A DNA stretch of 13,375 bases. It comes from a virus. The DNA lies in the IMG/VR virus record IMGVR_UViG_3300012983_001730, one strand, 5' to 3'. The position numbers and the translations under genes were made by a program. Under the pieces are notes generated by a model. That model was not told where the DNA came from. It was given only the letters and a program-made list of their open reading frames with translations, and searched no databases. Below are positions 5,641 to 12,311 of this stretch, piece by piece (the stretch's first letter is position 1; every line of letters begins with the position of its first letter).

Positions 5641-5698
5641 ATTTGTTCTCCATTTCTATCAACTTCTTTCTTTTTTCTTTTCTTAACCTTATATATAT

Positions 5699-5727
5699 AT
5701 TATATCATATTTTTTATAAAAAATCAA
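5699..5727 (-). promoter_or_regulatory. Copy 1 of the conserved promoter cassette (TTGATT-17 nt-TGA-TATAAT), directly abutting the stop of the PPP-phosphatase gene.
   Basis: On the minus strand, TTGATT is at 5727..5722, the spacer is 17 nt, and TATAAT is at 5704..5699 with an upstream TGn. It is followed by ATATATATA and a conserved AAGGTTAAGAAAAG leader. Confidence 0.65.
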
Positions 5728-5729
5728 TA

Positions 5730-6440
5730 TTACAGATAAGGTGTAGTGTTGAAGACTTGCTCTTCCCAAGTATCAAGGTCCATCAGTGAGAAGTAACCTG
5801 TAAATACTGCACCAGCGTCAATACAACACTTGTGACCATCGCAGTACCAAATGGCGCCAGGTTCAACCTCGCCCATGCGGCACGCAGGGTCAATTTCATC
5901 CAAAAGATATGGAGTAGGAGTGTGTCCATGAATTACAATCGCCTTTTTGAACATTTCGTCTTCAGGCCACGCATCAAGGAAATGGTCTCGACTCCAAATC
6001 AAATCTTCATCCCACTCCCAAGCGAGCTGACCGTCGCGCTCACGAGGAGTGAAGCCTGCATGAGAGAGATATACGGTCTCACCTTGTGCGTTTACATAAA
6101 CGGCTTTTGTTGGAAGCTGAAGCATCTTAATTCTCCACTGAGCCCAATCTTCTTCTTCCATACACTGCTTGTAGGTGTTTCCACCGCCGTTGCTACGAAG
6201 CAGGTTGTAGTTACGACCGAATCCCTTACCAAGAGCGTTAACGAGCATATCCTCGTGGTTTCCCTTAATGTAAATAAACTGAGGGTCATTCAAAATTGCT
6301 TTGATACATTCCCAAGGTTCGGGACCGCGGTCACCAGCATCGCCCAAGAAGTATACAACATCATCGGGCTGAAGAAACTCTTTAATTGTCTTGTAAAATA
6401 CCATCATTCCGTGGATATCAGAACAAGCATAATGAGCCAT
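5730..6440 (-). CDS. PPP-family Ser/Thr protein phosphatase (lambda-phosphatase / PrpA / ApaH-like).
   Basis: The PPP signature motifs SDIHG (GDxHG), GDAGDRG (GDxxDRG) and GNHE are in canonical order and spacing. The ribosome-binding site AAGGAG is upstream of the ATG at 6440. Confidence 0.85.
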   Translation of the reverse strand: MAHYACSDIHGMMVFYKTIKEFLQPDDVVYFLGDAGDRGPEPWECIKAILNDPQFIYIKGNHEDMLVNALGKGFGRNYNLLRSNGGGNTYKQCMEEEDWAQWRIKMLQLPTKAVYVNAQGETVYLSHAGFTPRERDGQLAWEWDEDLIWSRDHFLDAWPEDEMFKKAIVIHGHTPTPYLLDEIDPACRMGEVEPGAIWYCDGHKCCIDAGAVFTGYFSLMDLDTWEEQVFNTTPYL

Positions 6441-6491
6441 CGCTAATCGCTCCTTTCTTTTTTTTTATTTATTTCTTAACTTTGTATATAT

Positions 6492-6520
6492 ATTATAACA
6501 TATTTTTTTATAAAAATCAA
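6492..6520 (-). promoter_or_regulatory. Copy 2 of the conserved promoter cassette (TTGATT-17 nt-TGT-TATAAT).
   Basis: TTGATT at 6520..6515 and TATAAT at 6497..6492. The -35 T-tract doubles as the U-tract of the adjacent terminator. Confidence 0.65.
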
Positions 6521-6548
6521 AAAAGGACTTATGGTTTACATAAGTCCT
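6516..6548 (-). terminator. Rho-independent terminator after nadE.
   Basis: Perfect 10-bp stem AGGACTTATG (6524-6533) / CATAAGTCCT (6539-6548) with a 5-nt loop. On the minus strand it is followed by TTTTTT. It lies 8 nt after the stop at 6556. Confidence 0.7.
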
Positions 6549-6555
6549 CTTCTGT

Positions 6556-7347
6556 TTAGAAATGCCAATGATAATTGTCGTTACGACCTTCGGCGCGAGG
6601 GCCAGGCAAGTTAATGCATTTCTTGTGTTCATTTCTTGCGTGACGCTGGCTCATATTGCGCCAAGTGTCGACGTCCGGGATAATGTCCAGAAGCAGATAA
6701 TCATCAATCTGGTCATAGGTTACGCCCATATTATCCTCGTCAGTCTGACCAGTCATACCATCCGCAGGCGCCTTATCAACCAGGTGACGAGGAATCTCCT
6801 TCATTGCACGACCCATCATGAGAACTTCACGAACAGTCAGCTCCTGGAATAGATGGAAGTCGCCGGCGAGATCGCCATACTTGGTGGTGTAACCAATCCA
6901 ACCCTCGGACCAGTTACCAGTATTGACTACACGACCTCCATAAATTGCTGCGATAGCATATAGAGTTACCATACGCATACGAGCAGGAACATTTGTACGA
7001 ACAGCAGGAATTTCGCAATCGCCGCGACCTACGCAGCCATAAAATGCATCAACTGCAGGCTCGATATTGATTTCATCATACTTGATACCAAGAGCCTCGC
7101 AGACTTCATAGGAATGCGCGATGTCTGCCTGAGTGCCACAAGGCATCAATACGCCGTGAACCCTGTCTGCGCCCAGTGCTCGGACAAGCAGGGCGGCCGC
7201 AATTGTAGAATCTTTACCACCGGAAATACCGATGATAGCCTTGGTCTCAGGACCAGCATTTTTCACGAAATATTTACGAATCCACTCAACAGTGTACTCA
7301 ATCTGATATTTGGGGTCAAATTCCCACTTTCTCTTATCCTTACCCAT
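6556..7347 (-). CDS. nadE: NH3-dependent NAD+ synthetase (NadE, PP-loop ATP pyrophosphatase).
   Basis: PP-loop GISGGKDS is present. The length (263 aa) and overall pattern match single-domain NadE. The ribosome-binding site GGAGGA is 8 nt upstream of the ATG at 7347. The stop of the macrodomain gene is 1 nt upstream. Confidence 0.85.
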   Translation of the reverse strand: MGKDKRKWEFDPKYQIEYTVEWIRKYFVKNAGPETKAIIGISGGKDSTIAAALLVRALGADRVHGVLMPCGTQADIAHSYEVCEALGIKYDEINIEPAVDAFYGCVGRGDCEIPAVRTNVPARMRMVTLYAIAAIYGGRVVNTGNWSEGWIGYTTKYGDLAGDFHLFQELTVREVLMMGRAMKEIPRHLVDKAPADGMTGQTDEDNMGVTYDQIDDYLLLDIIPDVDTWRNMSQRHARNEHKKCINLPGPRAEGRNDNYHWHF

Positions 7348-10680: not shown

Positions 10681-10697
10681 TTGGTTCAGTTCCTTTC

Positions 10698-11471
10698 TTA
10701 AATAATCTCAATCAGTTCATTCTGAGCATTTCCAGGGAAGATGCTATTGGTAGTGAAAATCTTCTCTACCAGACCAGAATTCACCAAATCTCCATTGAAA
10801 ATAGTCATCTCACAGTGAGTGACATAGAGATAAACCTTTGCTGCGCCAGCGTCCTTGAGAGCCTTAGCAGTATGGTAGAAAGTGCCACCACGAGAGCAGA
10901 TATCGTCAACAATCAGAACATTCTTGCCAACAACTACATCGGGATGCATGAGGTCCAGACCCTCAATCTTACCATCTGCCCAATTACGACGCTTCACGCC
11001 GAAGGAATAAGGCTTGCTGACCATACCAGAGTAGCGCTTCATTGCGCCCTCGTCAGGGTAGCACATAACCAGATTTTCGTCTGCAATCTTCTCAATTACA
11101 GTTTCGATATGGGCCTGCGCAGATACAACCTGCACATTATCCAGAAGAGCCTCGCACACATTGGAATGAGGGTCTTCGATGTACACAGCAGCAAATCCCA
11201 GGTCATTGATGGTTTCGCAGAAATACTTCAGCGTAAACACATCAGTAGGAGCCTTAACCCGGTCCATACGAGCATGAGGGCAGTAAGGCATATACAGGCT
11301 CAGAGGAAGGTGCTGATAATGCTTGCGGATGCAGATGATGGTAAACAGCTCGGCATCATTCTCATAGTTCCAGATTACCAGACCGTTTTCCAGCTGCTCT
11401 GGCAGATGCATGAGCAGAGTATTGTCGGGATAAGAAAGCTGGTCAATTACAACATTTCCAATTCGAATCAT
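10698..11471 (-). CDS. prs: Ribose-phosphate pyrophosphokinase-like protein (Prs / PRPP synthetase family), a short divergent form. It could be the Adps-type ADPR pyrophosphokinase of the NARP1 pathway.
   Basis: The PRPP-binding loop VLIVDDICSRGGTF is present. MPYCPHARMDR matches the Prs IPYFGYARQDR pattern, and EDPHS matches the VDLHA region. At 257 aa it is ~60 aa shorter than canonical Prs. The ribosome-binding site AAAGGAGAAG is present. Confidence 0.8.
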   Translation of the reverse strand: MIRIGNVVIDQLSYPDNTLLMHLPEQLENGLVIWNYENDAELFTIICIRKHYQHLPLSLYMPYCPHARMDRVKAPTDVFTLKYFCETINDLGFAAVYIEDPHSNVCEALLDNVQVVSAQAHIETVIEKIADENLVMCYPDEGAMKRYSGMVSKPYSFGVKRRNWADGKIEGLDLMHPDVVVGKNVLIVDDICSRGGTFYHTAKALKDAGAAKVYLYVTHCEMTIFNGDLVNSGLVEKIFTTNSIFPGNAQNELIEII

Positions 11472-11472
11472 A

Positions 11473-11661
11473 TTACTTCTCCTTTATCAATCTACTATAA
11501 ACTTCTTCGATTCGGTCGCTATCTTCCCATCCCATCTGCCTATATGCAGCCAATCTCAATATTGCACAATACTTTTTGAAATTTTGCTTTGCATATATGA
11601 AGAGGGATGGGGAGTAAGGAATATCGTTTTGCTTTAGAAAAGCAATTTGTTCATCATTCAT
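11473..11661 (-). CDS. Small hypothetical protein (62 aa), translationally coupled between pncA-like and prs-like.
   Basis: ATGAATGA overlap with the upstream stop. TAAT-ATG junction with the downstream start. I recognise no domain. Confidence 0.5.
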   Translation of the reverse strand: MNDEQIAFLKQNDIPYSPSLFIYAKQNFKKYCAILRLAAYRQMGWEDSDRIEEVYSRLIKEK

Positions 11662-12226
11662 TGATAACCTTAATCTGGCAAGACTTCATAGTTTCCAGAG
11701 CTGCCAGATGACGCTCGGGAGTAACACCGGCGCAGCAACTTGCGTCAACAGTTACCTGCACTTCAGGACAGTAAGCCTTAATCAGCATCGCATTGGAAAC
11801 AACGCAGATATCGGTGCAAACGCCCATGAGGATAACCTCGTCGATAGGATTGTCGGGGAGAATGTCGCGGATAATTTCAGCCAGGCGAATAGAACCAAAG
11901 GTATTCTTGAGAACGCGGCTCTTCATAATGTCCTTAGCAGAGTAGAAGCAGAAATTGCTACCATAGTCCACAACGCTGGAAATCTGCTTATTGATGCTCC
12001 AGCCCGGGGTGCCCTCGATACAGTGGGGAACAGGCAGGTTCTTACCCTCCTGGGTATCCATATAGTCAGCGTAATGGGTGTCCTTGGTGAACATAATCAG
12101 ATTGTCACCGGCGTTCAGTTCTTTCAGACGCTCCACCATTACAGGAACGATTGCCTGAGCCTCAGGACTGCCTAGAGCGCCGTCGATGAAATCATTCTGC
12201 ATATCAACTACAACAATAACTTTCAT
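11654..12226 (-). CDS. pncA: Nicotinamidase/pyrazinamidase PncA (isochorismatase-family cysteine hydrolase).
   Basis: VIVVVDMQNDF (catalytic Asp). TKDTHY…PVPHCIEGTPGW parallels the M. tuberculosis PncA metal site TKDFH…PPHCVSGTPGADF. The catalytic Cys is in GVCTDICV. The ribosome-binding site AAAGGAG is present. Confidence 0.8.
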   Translation of the reverse strand: MKVIVVVDMQNDFIDGALGSPEAQAIVPVMVERLKELNAGDNLIMFTKDTHYADYMDTQEGKNLPVPHCIEGTPGWSINKQISSVVDYGSNFCFYSAKDIMKSRVLKNTFGSIRLAEIIRDILPDNPIDEVILMGVCTDICVVSNAMLIKAYCPEVQVTVDASCCAGVTPERHLAALETMKSCQIKVINE

Positions 12227-12260
12227 AAGGTATTAACTCCTTTTCTTACTTTATATATAT

Positions 12261-12289
12261 ATTATAACATATATTTTATAAAAAATCAA
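12261..12289 (-). promoter_or_regulatory. Copy 4 of the conserved promoter cassette (TTGATT-17 nt-TGT-TATAAT).
   Basis: TTGATT at 12289..12284 and TATAAT at 12266..12261. It is followed by ATATATATA and an AAAGTAAGAAAAGGAG leader. It is fused to the terminator at 12280-12311. Confidence 0.65.
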
Positions 12290-12311
12290 GGGCGAGGTTT
12301 TACCCTCGCCC
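12280..12311 (-). terminator. Rho-independent terminator after the right-edge coiled-coil gene.
   Basis: Perfect 8-bp GC-rich stem GGGCGAGG (12290-12297) / CCTCGCCC (12304-12311) with loop TTTTAC. On the minus strand it is followed by TTGATTTTTT. Confidence 0.7.

What the first reader, a model, noticed from the sequence alone, without database searches (positions are those of the whole stretch)
5691..12300. Four near-identical ~36-55-bp promoter cassettes, three of them fused to terminator hairpins
The plus-strand motif TATATATATTATAACATATTTTTTATAAAAAATCAA recurs at 5691-5727, 6485-6520, 10093-10127 and 12253-12289. On the coding (minus) strand it reads TTGATT-17 nt-TGnTATAAT-ATATATATA followed by a conserved AAGT(T)AAGAAA leader, i.e. 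a near-consensus sigma70 promoter with an extended -10 and an A/T upstream region. In three copies the -35 T-tract (TTGATTTTTT) is also the U-tract of a perfect GC-rich hairpin immediately upstream. Each copy is therefore a combined 'terminate-and-restart' cassette that insulates accessory operons. This level of conservation indicates a co-regulated (probably early/host-polymerase) gene class. It also gives a sequence handle to find the remaining members genome-wide. The phoH operon uses a different promoter (TTGACT-17-TGGTATAAT at 2275-2303), implying a separate regulatory class.
Basis: seen in the sequence. Interest (0 to 1): 0.6.

Follow-up and report, generated by a model that had tools for sequence, protein, structure and literature searches.

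The report
Repeated phage promoter–terminator cassettes
Four copies of one strongly conserved, housekeeping-type promoter sit in front of successive accessory-gene operons of a large uncultivated gut or rumen phage, three of them joined to a terminator hairpin; this is a well-known kind of phage regulatory signal, here conserved over hundreds of copies in a whole group of related phages.

Summary
Four copies of a 36-nt motif lie on the minus strand at 12289-12254, 10127-10092, 6520-6485 and 5727-5692, where none is expected by chance.

- **Sequence.** The motif reads TTGATTTTT(T)-A/T-tract-TATGnTATAAT-ATATAT-R. That is a sigma-A/sigma-70-type promoter with a fixed 17-bp spacer, the Gram-positive TRTG extended -10, an AT-rich discriminator and a purine at the predicted start. 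A C-poor, purine-rich leader with a Shine-Dalgarno site follows.
- **Terminators.** Three copies abut a stable hairpin (-21 to -23 kcal/mol) placed just after the upstream stop codon. The fourth has none.
- **Family.** I found 510 unique copies in 2.39 Mb of related viral contigs. They are co-oriented with genes and lie a median of 28.5 nt from a start codon. They also precede tRNA genes and hold orthologous positions in phages whose proteins are only 40-70% identical.
- **Hairpin turnover.** At orthologous sites the hairpin sequence changes completely, but the hairpin itself stays.
- **New point.** The same phage encodes a SigA-like sigma factor with canonical DNA-reading residues, itself behind a cassette. 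Host sigma or phage sigma may therefore read these promoters.
- **Closest known.** PeSL cassettes of T4-like phages.

This is an ordinary kind of element, and a new member of it.

The parts
12254..12289 (-). Cassette promoter P1. -35 TTGATT at 12289-12284, TATG at 12271-12268, -10 TATAAT at 12266-12261, predicted +1 near 12254. Drives PncA, a 62-aa ORF, a Prs-like gene and a lipoprotein-like gene (12226-10165).
   Evidence: the start codon lies 27 nt after the end of the motif (sequence)
12288..12313 (-). Terminator hairpin T1, after the stop codon of the MVP-shoulder gene (12324). Its 3' arm and U-run overlap the -35 of P1.
   Evidence: 10 pairs, 7 G-C; -21.8 kcal/mol, z -6.0; orthologous sites in four other phages keep a hairpin of unrelated sequence
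10092..10127 (-). Cassette promoter P2. Drives a 62-aa ORF, a 178-aa ORF, the NAMPT-like gene, a 169-aa phosphatase and NadE (10048-6556).
10125..10156 (-). Terminator hairpin T2, after the stop codon of the lipoprotein-like gene (10165), abutting P2.
   Evidence: 14 pairs; -23.0 kcal/mol, z -6.4
6485..6520 (-). Cassette promoter P3. Drives metallophosphoesterase 2 (6440-5730).
6518..6554 (-). Terminator hairpin T3, starting 2 nt after the NadE stop codon (6556), abutting P3.
   Evidence: 16 pairs; -20.7 kcal/mol, z -6.9
5692..5727 (-). Cassette promoter P4, with no hairpin. The stop codon of the upstream gene lies 2 nt before the -35. Drives an 88-aa zinc-finger ORF, an AAA_33 kinase, metallophosphoesterase 1, a 101-aa ORF and the SPFH/flotillin gene (5640-2439).
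   Evidence: no fold; three of the four orthologous copies in other phages (L082, L073, L116) also lack a hairpin, L068 being the exception
2397..2424 (-). Free-standing intrinsic terminator that ends the P4 operon after the SPFH gene. It is not fused to a cassette.
   Evidence: 12 pairs, 7 G-C; -22.5 kcal/mol
2275..2303 (-). Non-cassette sigma-A-type promoter (TTGACT-17-TGGTATAAT) of the 154-aa, 82-aa and PhoH operon. It matches the cassette consensus at 23 of 36 positions (counted by eye) and has no A-run in the spacer.
   Evidence: 11 of 12; the same non-cassette promoter sits at the orthologous site in L082
222..251 (-). Intrinsic terminator after phoH.
   Evidence: 13 pairs; -23.9 kcal/mol

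Best explanation
The four repeats are copies of one family of strong promoters read by RNA polymerase carrying a primary (group 1, sigma-A/sigma-70-type) sigma factor.

**Elements.** The -35 is TTGAYT. An exactly 17-bp spacer follows, made of a T-run then an A-run, and then TRTGnTATAAT. Next come a six-base AT discriminator, a purine start about 7 nt after the -10, and a short, nearly C-free purine leader carrying the ribosome-binding site.

**Layout.** The copies stand at the head of successive same-strand operons. These operons encode accessory and early-type functions: NAD salvage, phosphoesterases and a kinase in the window, and tRNAs, a sigma factor, RNA repair and replication genes elsewhere in the same phage and its relatives.

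**Terminator fusion.** Where the upstream operon has to be closed off (three of four copies here), an intrinsic terminator hairpin sits directly against the promoter. Its U-run is the T-run of the -35 and spacer. Upstream transcription then stops and a fresh, equally strong transcript starts within about 40 nt.

**Who reads it.** The phage's own SigA-like sigma is itself expressed from a cassette and keeps the canonical -35, extended -10 and -10 reading residues. It probably reads the same promoters later, or when host SigA is limiting.

**Shown versus inferred.** Shown by sequence and comparison: motif, geometry, orientation, position, hairpins and conservation. Inferred: actual initiation and termination, promoter strength, timing, and which sigma is used.
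For: - **Motif and chance.** Four copies against none expected.
- **Logo.** The logo of 229 unique copies is nearly invariant from position 0 to about 38 and stays conserved to about 50.
- **Unbiased check.** 158 copies found only through TATAATATATA, none of which match the pattern used to fetch the loci, still show TTGA at exactly 17 nt (T 96%, T 97%, G 89%, A 95%). They also show the T-run, the A-run and TRTG.
- **Orientation.** All four window copies are on the coding strand. In loci around the phage sigma gene the count is 227 copies on the gene strand and 0 on the other.
- **Distance to genes.** 182 of 216 copies have a Shine-Dalgarno site plus start codon downstream, at a median of 28.5 nt. 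The antisense control gives 63 of 216, widely scattered.
- **tRNA genes.** Copies also precede tRNA genes, so the signal is transcriptional and not tied to translation.
- **Orthology.** Copies hold orthologous positions in phages whose proteins are 40-70% identical.
- **Terminators.** The hairpins are stable (z -6 to -7) and lie just after stop codons. They are 6-fold enriched at the -35 edge: 30% of 510 copies against 4.7% of random sites. At orthologous sites they are replaced by unrelated sequences that still fold.
- **Built to be strong.** A 17-bp spacer, an extended -10 and a low-GC discriminator are the features that remove sensitivity to the initiating NTP (introduction of PMC3113569).
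- **Firmicutes-type context.** The closest cultured-phage matches to PhoH and NAMPT are phages of Firmicutes such as Alicyclobacillus, Geobacillus and Bacillus. Genome-collection hits are mostly Clostridia metagenome-assembled genomes (MAGs).
- **Phage sigma.** A 341-aa RpoD/SigA-like protein has regions 1.2 to 4. It carries YATWWIRQ, RIPVHMVE and TRERIRQIE, and lies directly downstream of a cassette.
Against: - There is no transcript evidence of any kind. Start sites, termination efficiency and timing are all inferred.
- The -35 is consistently TTGAYT rather than TTGACA. The spacer and the early transcribed region are far more conserved than sigma-A recognition alone requires. Something besides simple sigma binding may therefore constrain the sequence.
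- The host is unknown.
- Some lineages have lost the TG of the extended -10 in nearly all copies. The strong extended -10 design is therefore not universal in the family.
Confidence: 0.8

Rival explanations
1. The cassettes are a private promoter class read specifically by the phage-encoded SigA-like sigma. They would form a self-reinforcing, host-independent circuit, and host SigA would use them poorly or not at all.
For: - A full-length RpoD-like sigma lies in the same cassette-dense arm, directly behind a cassette.
- Homologues (43-62% identical) occur in many large contigs of the clade, each surrounded by 6-16 cassettes per 21 kb. Short or high-GC contigs with rpoD-like genes have none.
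- The promoter is conserved well beyond the -35 and -10.
- Whole genomes shift their consensus together: TG is present in 9 of 9 copies in one lineage and 1 of 18 in another.
Against: - The sigma's DNA-reading residues in regions 2.4, 3.0 and 4.2 are the canonical SigA ones. No altered specificity is predicted, and host SigA should read the same sites.
- Lineages that lost TG keep the region 3.0 His and Glu, so promoter and sigma do not co-vary.
- One contig with a 53%-identical sigma has almost no strict cassettes.
Confidence: 0.25
2. The conserved spacer (ATTTTTTATAAAAAAT, a 16-nt palindrome in some copies) is an operator for a dimeric phage or host regulator that switches the whole class on or off.
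For: The spacer is nearly as conserved as the hexamers. In the consensus copy it is a perfect palindrome (sequence).
Against: Only 69 of 510 copies (14%) are perfect palindromes. The boundary between the T-run and the A-run slides: T5/A7 is the commonest form, T6/A6 the second and T7/A5 also occurs, while the total length stays at 17. A dimeric operator would need fixed half-sites. A T-run followed by an A-run looks more like a DNA-shape requirement of the spacer.
Confidence: 0.1
3. The primary significance of the repeats is recombinational, as for PeSLs. They would be portable homology blocks at which gene modules are gained, lost and swapped, with promoter activity secondary.
For: - In relatives, extra or different genes sit right next to cassettes. 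Examples are between NadE and the metallophosphoesterase, and between Prs and the next cassette.
- Among closely related ~195-kb gut phages, one indel is a clean cassette-to-cassette unit: 282 nt plus a 53-nt shared overlap. Several others have one edge at a cassette or at its terminator.
- Copies within a genome share lineage-specific changes, as gene conversion would produce.
Against: - Only about 5 of 11 distinct indels touch a cassette, and with one cassette per ~1.2 kb about 30% would do so by chance (my estimate).
- Indels in intergenic DNA are favoured by selection in any case.
- The window and its two close relatives (96-97% identical) show no indel at all.
- Cassettes are stable at orthologous sites over deep divergence.
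- Within-genome similarity is only slightly higher than between-genome similarity: 10.7 against 11.4 differences in 48 nt.
Confidence: 0.15
4. The repeats are chance AT-rich low-complexity similarity with no function.
For: The motif is 94% A+T and the intergenic DNA here is AT-rich.
Against: No match in 200 shuffles; fixed spacing and G positions; strict strand bias; conservation across hundreds of copies and many genomes.
Confidence: 0.01

Closest known systems
PeSL (promoter-early stem-loop) cassettes of T4-like phages (Arbiol et al. 2010, PMC2839356; Comeau et al. 2014, PMC4122927)
   Same: Both are small repeated intergenic units that combine a strong sigma-70-type early promoter with a terminator or attenuator stem-loop. 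Both are dense in regions of accessory genes and co-oriented with them, and both are associated with gain and loss of genes between related phages.
   Different: - PeSL stem-loops sit in five different positions relative to the promoter, including between the -35 and -10. Here the hairpin, when present, is always upstream and abuts the -35 as an ordinary terminator.
- PeSLs were described in myoviruses of Gram-negative hosts. This clade looks like phages of Firmicutes.
- The sequence is held much more tightly here (about 50 nt), over phages with 40-50% protein identity.
- Recombination between copies is only weakly evidenced here, by one clean case in relatives. No mini-circle data exist.
Early promoters of large virulent phages read by the host primary sigma: T4 and T5 early promoters, and the early promoter/terminator cluster of the SPO1 host-takeover module (my own knowledge; SPO1's early dependence on host sigma-A is stated in the abstract of PMC13401047)
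   Same: All have many near-identical, very strong primary-sigma promoters in front of short early operons. Consensus extends beyond the two hexamers, and terminators often lie between units.
   Different: None of those phages is known to me to carry a full SigA/RpoD-like sigma under such a promoter. SPO1 switches to small, divergent sigmas (gp28, gp33/34) with different promoter specificity. The timing of the cassettes here is unknown.
Gram-positive sigma-A promoters with the -16 TRTG element, of the B. subtilis Pveg type (my own knowledge; promoter features discussed in PMC3113569)
   Same: TTGAnn-17-TRTGnTATAAT with an AT-rich discriminator. These features give stable open complexes and constitutive high activity.
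   Different: Cellular promoters do not share a 36-50-nt near-identical sequence. The T-run/A-run spacer and the ATATAT-R-N-AA start region are specific to this phage family.
Phage-encoded sigma factors of Firmicutes phages (Schwartz et al. [quoted passage not shown]
   Same: A sigma-70-family gene carried by a phage of a probable Firmicutes host.
   Different: The sigmas characterised in that work resemble sporulation sigmas (SigF/SigG). This one is RpoD/SigA-like over regions 1.2 to 4, with canonical promoter-reading residues. It scores below NCBIfam's equivalog cut-offs (369 bits against 572).

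Membership tests
Primary-sigma (sigma-70/sigma-A) promoter with extended -10 | A -35 hexamer related to TTGACA | tested here: met
   TTGATT in all four copies (4 of 6 positions). In copies found from the -10 alone, TTGA is 89-97% conserved.
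Primary-sigma (sigma-70/sigma-A) promoter with extended -10 | Spacer of 17 +/- 1 bp and a -10 hexamer TATAAT | tested here: met
   Exactly 17 bp and a perfect TATAAT in all four copies. The spacing is fixed across the family.
Primary-sigma (sigma-70/sigma-A) promoter with extended -10 | TG at -15/-14 (TRTG at -17 to -14 in Gram-positive bacteria) | tested here: met
   TATG lies before the -10 in all four copies. G is 81-96% conserved in the family, but is lost in some lineages.
Primary-sigma (sigma-70/sigma-A) promoter with extended -10 | Intergenic, co-oriented with and shortly upstream of a gene | tested here: met
   227 to 0 strand bias, and a median of 28.5 nt to the start codon.
Primary-sigma (sigma-70/sigma-A) promoter with extended -10 | Transcription starts 6-8 nt downstream of the -10 and depends on the holoenzyme | not testable with these tools
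   Needs 5'-end mapping or in vitro transcription. The only sequence hint is a purine (A 79%, G 21%) at the seventh base after the -10.
Intrinsic (Rho-independent) terminator | Stable G-C-containing hairpin followed directly by a U-run | tested here: met
   Three of four copies, at -20.7 to -23.0 kcal/mol with z of -6 to -7. The U-run is UU(U)GAUUUUUU, interrupted by GA.
Intrinsic (Rho-independent) terminator | Located just downstream of a stop codon on the coding strand | tested here: met
   Each hairpin begins 2-11 nt after the stop codon of the upstream gene.
Intrinsic (Rho-independent) terminator | Structure conserved while sequence changes in relatives | tested here: met
   The orthologous sites with a hairpin, each compared in 5-7 phages, carry unrelated stem sequences that still form 8-14-bp hairpins at the same place.
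Intrinsic (Rho-independent) terminator | Measured termination of transcription | not testable with these tools
   Needs term-seq or a reporter assay.
PeSL cassettes (T4-like phages) | Sigma-70-like early promoter combined with a stem-loop in one repeated intergenic motif | tested here: met
   Three of four copies here. Across the clade, 30% by a strict rule against 4.7% background and about 50% by a loose rule.
PeSL cassettes (T4-like phages) | Concentrated in hyperplastic regions, upstream of variable or ORFan genes | tested here: inconclusive
   There are 13 copies in the 35-kb accessory arm. Pattern hits on long contigs cluster in one arm, and variable genes lie next to cassettes. No complete genome map was obtainable.
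PeSL cassettes (T4-like phages) | Recombination between copies produces indels, replacements and mini-circles | tested here: inconclusive
   One clean cassette-to-cassette indel with a 53-nt overlap was found in related phages. About 5 of 11 indels touch a cassette, against roughly 30% expected. None lies in the window. Mini-circles cannot be tested.
PeSL cassettes (T4-like phages) | Carried by T4-like myoviruses of Gram-negative hosts | tested here: inconclusive
   The best cultured-phage matches of two window proteins are phages of Firmicutes, and MAG bins are mostly Clostridia. Structural genes of this phage were not available for classification. I therefore treat this as working like a PeSL, not as a member by descent.

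The most novel reading that the evidence does not exclude
A whole clade of uncultivated 120-200-kb phages of gut and rumen Clostridia carries a portable transcription module with two parts. One is its own housekeeping-type (SigA-like) sigma factor. The other is a cognate promoter of about 50 nt, conserved across hundreds of copies and evolving in concert within each genome.

The sigma gene sits behind one of these promoters, which would give a positive-feedback loop. That loop would make early and accessory gene expression (tRNAs, NAD reconstitution, RNA repair, replication) largely independent of the state of the host's own SigA. The identical cassettes would double as joints for exchanging gene modules.
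Probability: 0.25. Interest if true: 0.6.

Novelty: new member of a known kind. Interest (0 to 1): 0.35.

Why it matters
- **Operon map and search handle.** If the reading is right, the motif gives a ready-made operon map for a large group of phages that nobody has cultured.
- **What the phages express first.** It marks the set of genes these phages probably switch on first, including NAD-salvage, sirtuin/NADAR, RNA-repair and tRNA genes that look like counter-defence and takeover functions.
- **A testable question.** Pairing with a phage-borne SigA-like sigma poses a concrete question: does the phage bring its own housekeeping sigma to read housekeeping-type promoters, and why?
- **Synthetic biology.** The cassette is a compact candidate strong promoter plus insulator for Clostridia and other Firmicutes.
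- **Limits.** None of this is conceptually new. Strong repeated early promoters with adjoining terminators are textbook phage biology.

Tried and rejected
- **Cultured relatives.** Megablast of the whole window against 50,697 GenBank phage records gave no match. A protein search with the phage sigma found no convincing cultured relative.
- **Rfam.** Nothing in the window at gathering thresholds, so the conserved leader is not a known RNA element.
- **Palindromic operator.** Rejected, because only 14% of copies are palindromic and the T/A boundary slides.
- **T-run as terminator U-run only.** Rejected, because the T-run is equally conserved in copies without a hairpin.
- **Sigma/promoter co-variation.** Lineages without the TG keep the region 3.0 His and Glu, so this gave no signal either way.
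- **The 183-aa ORF after the sigma gene as a fixed partner.** It is not syntenic with the sigma in relatives.
- **Extending the genome beyond the window.** Exact-protein lookup returned only a 4-kb contig, so no whole-genome cassette map could be made.
- **First hairpin criterion.** The rule used was too lax (31% of random sites passed). It was replaced by a strict rule.
- **Literature.** A full-text search for the motif string found nothing relevant. Two searches failed on term syntax.
- **Indel-boundary enrichment at cassettes.** Suggestive only, not significant.

Full report
**1. The observation**

No match occurred in 200 dinucleotide-preserving shuffles. A scan allowing up to 12 mismatches on both strands finds no further real copy.

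Every credible gene in the window is on the minus strand. Read on that strand, each copy is TTGATTTTT(T)...TATGnTATAATATATATA. The generic promoter scan scores each copy TTGATT-17-TATAAT with a TG (10 of 12), and scores the phoH-operon promoter at 2303-2275 as TTGACT-17-TATAAT with a TG (11 of 12). The three copies that could be compared pairwise agree at 32-33 of 36 positions and 46-47 of 56.

Three hairpin plus T-run sites abut the -35 of three copies, at 12313-12288, 10156-10125 and 6554-6518. They fold at -21.8, -23.0 and -20.7 kcal/mol, with z-scores of -6.0 to -6.9. The region upstream of the fourth copy does not fold (z -0.7).

**2. Layout in the window (minus strand, right to left)**

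| Unit | Genes and coordinates |
|---|---|
| Upstream gene | MVP-shoulder-domain gene (13334-12324), then T1/P1 |
| P1 operon | nicotinamidase-type isochorismatase (12226-11654), 62-aa ORF, Prs-like ribose-phosphate pyrophosphokinase (11471-10698), lipoprotein-like 171-aa ORF (10680-10165), then T2/P2 |
| P2 operon | 62-aa and 178-aa ORFs, NAMPT/NAPRT-like gene (9324-7852), 169-aa phosphatase, NAD synthase (7347-6556), then T3/P3 |
| P3 unit | metallophosphoesterase (6440-5730), then P4 with no terminator |
| P4 operon | 88-aa zinc-finger ORF, AAA_33 kinase, second metallophosphoesterase, 101-aa ORF, SPFH/flotillin (3971-2439), free-standing terminator 2424-2397 |
| Non-cassette promoter 2303-2275 | 154-aa and 82-aa ORFs, PIN-PhoH (1495-257), terminator 251-222 |

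Start codons lie 27, 43, 44 and 51 nt after the end of the motif. Each is preceded by an AAGGAG/GGAG-type ribosome-binding site in a purine-rich leader.

**3. A family far beyond the window**

- **Source of the window.** A degenerate pattern hit at least 120 stretches of IMG/VR viral contigs, many of them 100-400 kb. The window is 96-97% identical to parts of IMGVR_UViG_3300024272_001728 (192 kb) and 3300018427_000023.
- **Logo.** 229 unique copies are nearly invariant from TTGA through the T-run, the A-run, TATG, TATAAT and ATATAT. A purine (A 79%, G 21%) stands at the seventh base after the -10, then AA, then a leader with about 3% C.
- **Control for search bias.** That set was found with the motif itself, so I repeated the analysis on 158 copies found only through TATAATATATA that do not match the fetch pattern. 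TTGA is still at exactly 17 nt (89-97% per base), and the T-run, A-run and TRTG persist.
- **Total.** In all I counted 510 unique copies in 169 loci within 2.39 Mb of held sequence.

**4. Evidence that it is a promoter**

- 182 of 216 copies have a Shine-Dalgarno site plus start codon downstream, with a mode of 20-30 nt and a median of 28.5 nt. The antisense control gives 63 of 216 with no peak.
- In 21-kb loci around the phage sigma gene, 227 copies lie on the gene strand and none on the other.
- In the window's own phage the arm from contig position 149.3 to about 184 kb holds 13 copies, each in a short gap between same-strand ORFs.
- Copies also stand in front of tRNA genes: 5 in this phage's arm and 18 in a related phage. 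The signal therefore acts on transcription, not translation.
- Genes behind cassettes here and in relatives include NAD salvage, SIR2, NADAR, Thg1-like and RNA ligase. They also include RNase T-type exonuclease, DnaB helicase, DNA polymerase, RecJ, anaerobic ribonucleotide reductase and a sigma factor. No virion gene appeared among those sampled. This fits an early or middle class, but no expression data exist.

**5. The terminator fusion**

By a strict rule (perfect stem of at least 6 pairs with at least 3 G-C, loop of 3-8, 3' end within -10 to +2 of the -35), 153 of 510 copies (30%) have a hairpin against the promoter. The figure for random positions is 4.7%, and most stems are 9-14 bp. A looser energy rule gives about half.

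The T-run is as conserved in copies without a hairpin as in those with one (positions 4-8: 0.89-0.99 against 0.95-1.00). It therefore belongs to the promoter, and terminators exploit it as their U-run.

Cassettes sit at four orthologous sites across 5-7 phages with 40-70% protein identity: before PncA, before the NAMPT operon, before the metallophosphoesterase and before the 88-aa ORF. At the first three sites a hairpin is always present, but its sequence is entirely different from phage to phage. At the fourth it is absent in the window and in three of four relatives, where the upstream stop codon touches the -35. Meanwhile the 36-nt promoter hardly changes. This is structure-level conservation of a terminator next to sequence-level conservation of a promoter.

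**6. Who reads it**

The geometry and the TRTG element are those of sigma-A promoters of low-GC Gram-positive bacteria. This -16-region element is established knowledge that I recall from Voskuil and Chambliss 1998, which I did not read here. A 17-bp spacer, an extended -10 and a low-GC discriminator are the features that abolish sensitivity to the initiating NTP (introduction of PMC3113569).

A Firmicutes host is suggested by two results.
- The best cultured-phage matches of PhoH and NAMPT are phages of Firmicutes such as Alicyclobacillus, Geobacillus and Bacillus.
- The genome-collection scan hit only contigs from metagenome-assembled genomes (MAGs), mostly Clostridia (Acutalibacteraceae, Oscillospiraceae, Lachnospiraceae). 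Several of these contigs are 128-176 kb and a few are obviously mis-binned.

The unexpected finding is a 341-aa sigma-70-family gene about 11 kb upstream in the same arm.
- It has regions 1.2, 2, 3 and 4, with a weak region 1.1.
- Its best NCBIfam match is the Firmicutes-type RpoD model over nearly its full length (369 bits, below the 572-bit equivalog cut-off).
- It carries canonical YATWWIRQ (region 2.4), RIPVHMVE (region 3.0) and TRERIRQIE (region 4.2).
- It lies directly behind a cassette.

Homologues 43-62% identical occur in many large contigs of the clade, always inside cassette-dense DNA (6-16 cassettes per 21 kb). Short or high-GC contigs carrying rpoD-like genes have none. More distant sigma-bearing contigs have looser versions of the same promoter design.

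I therefore keep 'host SigA first, phage sigma later or additionally' as the best model. 'Phage sigma only' is a rival.

One test for co-variation was uninformative. Lineages whose cassettes have lost the TG (1 of 18, 1 of 16 and 1 of 12 copies retain it) still keep the His and Glu of region 3.0.

**7. The spacer**

The consensus spacer contains the palindrome ATTTTTTATAAAAAAT. Only 14% of copies are perfectly palindromic, and the junction of T-run and A-run slides (T5/A7, T6/A6, T7/A5) while the length stays at 17. This argues against a dimeric operator. It favours a DNA-shape requirement, or simple inheritance of a successful design.

**8. Evolution**

- **Stable positions, variable neighbours.** Cassettes are stable at orthologous sites over deep divergence, but the genes adjoining them vary. 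Relatives carry 0.8-2 kb of extra genes between NadE and the metallophosphoesterase. Other genes replace the lipoprotein-like ORF before P2.
- **Indels.** Six closely related ~195-kb gut phages differ by about 11 distinct indels. One is a clean cassette-to-cassette unit (282 nt plus a 53-nt shared overlap). One fills the slot between a leader and the next terminator. A few more have one edge at a cassette or at its terminator, and the rest are elsewhere. With one cassette per ~1.2 kb this enrichment is only suggestive.
- **Concerted change.** Copies within a genome are slightly more alike than copies between genomes (10.7 against 11.4 differences in 48 nt; 0 of 1000 label permutations reached this). 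The loss of TG is all-or-none by lineage. This points to gene conversion among copies or to adaptation to a changed reader.
- **This window.** The window and its close relatives show no indels.

**9. Comparison with what is known**

The closest described entity is the PeSL of T4-like phages. It is a repeated intergenic unit that combines a strong sigma-70 early promoter with a terminator or attenuator stem-loop, is concentrated in hyperplastic accessory regions, and mediates modular shuffling (PMC2839356 section 13; PMC4122927).

The cassettes here work like PeSLs but differ in four ways.
- The hairpin has one fixed, ordinary position upstream of the -35.
- The sequence is held much more tightly, and across more divergent genomes.
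- The phage group appears to infect Firmicutes.
- Evidence for recombination is thin.

They also resemble the clustered early promoters and terminators of SPO1, T4 and T5 (my own knowledge). Phage-borne sigma genes in Firmicutes phages are known, and sigA-type annotations have been recorded among viral genomes and metagenomes (PMC9429907; PMC10294663 Table 1).

**10. Verdict**

The element is a new member of a well-known kind. My additions are:
- its clade-wide distribution and exact consensus;
- the comparative evidence for both halves of the unit;
- the finding that the T-run is a promoter feature;
- the phage's own SigA-like sigma, which complicates the 'host polymerase' label.

Interest is modest at 0.35. 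It would rise if the sigma-promoter pair proved to be a self-contained transcription module.

Noticed in passing
L173:10001-11026 (= L056:9908-10933; contig IMGVR_UViG_3300024272_001728 at about 159.3 kb, roughly 11 kb upstream of the window): The same phage encodes a 341-aa RpoD/SigA-like sigma factor with canonical region 2.4, 3.0 and 4.2 residues. It lies directly behind a cassette. Homologues 43-62% identical sit in cassette-dense DNA of many related 90-400-kb viral contigs.
   Followed up: yes
window 6556-12226 (minus strand) and L173:15809-17601: The window holds a near-complete NAD salvage set under two cassettes: nicotinamidase (PncA-type isochorismatase), Prs-like PRPP synthetase, NAMPT/NAPRT-like phosphoribosyltransferase, a 169-aa phosphatase and NAD synthase. 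NADAR and SIR2 genes lie in the adjoining operons. This looks like phage NAD reconstitution or counter-defence, but which pathway it is was not worked out.
   Followed up: partly
L173:668-2691 and L184:11745-19882: tRNA genes lie behind cassettes: 5 in this phage's arm and 18 within 9 kb in a related ~195-kb gut phage. In that relative, the unit lost in the clean cassette-to-cassette indel contains tRNA-like sequence fragments rather than an ORF.
   Followed up: partly
L184, L188 and L241 compared with L173, L175, L177, L181, L186 and L209: The G of the extended -10 (TATG to TATT) is lost in nearly every cassette of some genomes (it survives in 1 of 18, 1 of 16 and 1 of 12 copies) and kept in every cassette of others (7 of 7 to 9 of 9). 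That many copies changing together implies gene conversion among copies or adaptation to a changed reader. The sigma region 3.0 residues do not differ.
   Followed up: partly
window 2304-2345 (minus strand, upstream of the phoH-operon promoter): An imperfect inverted repeat, GGAAAAAAATTTCC (2330-2317), and its flanking sequence just upstream of the -35 are partly conserved at the orthologous site of a relative whose proteins are 47-63% identical (L082). This may be an operator that sets this promoter apart from the cassette class.
   Followed up: partly
window 2439-3971 and 12324-13334: An SPFH/flotillin gene (510 aa) and an MVP-shoulder-domain gene (336 aa) are both about 50-55% G+C, against 35-45% for much of the rest of the window. 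Two membrane-scaffold-type proteins in a phage accessory arm; their function is unknown.
   Followed up: no
window 10165-10680 (minus strand): The 171-aa ORF begins MKKFLALILALCMCFSLVACAG, a lipoprotein-type signal with a lipobox cysteine. It occupies the variable slot just before terminator T2 and is replaced by 1.6-2.7 kb of other genes in relatives (L015, L057, L041).
   Followed up: partly
L121-L170 (GTDB genome contigs): Cassette-bearing contigs of 128-176 kb, the size of these phage genomes, are binned into MAGs labelled Methanobrevibacter, Treponema, Alistipes, Anaeroplasmatales and Bacilli, as well as Clostridia. No isolate genome carries the motif. These look like phage genomes mis-binned into MAGs.
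   Followed up: no
IMGVR_UViG_3300032167_000002 (402 kb): L178 and L187: This contig carries two different sigma loci about 198 kb apart. Their match statistics and cassette counts equal those of the loci from two separate ~170-kb contigs (L177/L179 and L186). It is probably a chimeric join of two related phage genomes rather than a 402-kb phage.
   Followed up: no
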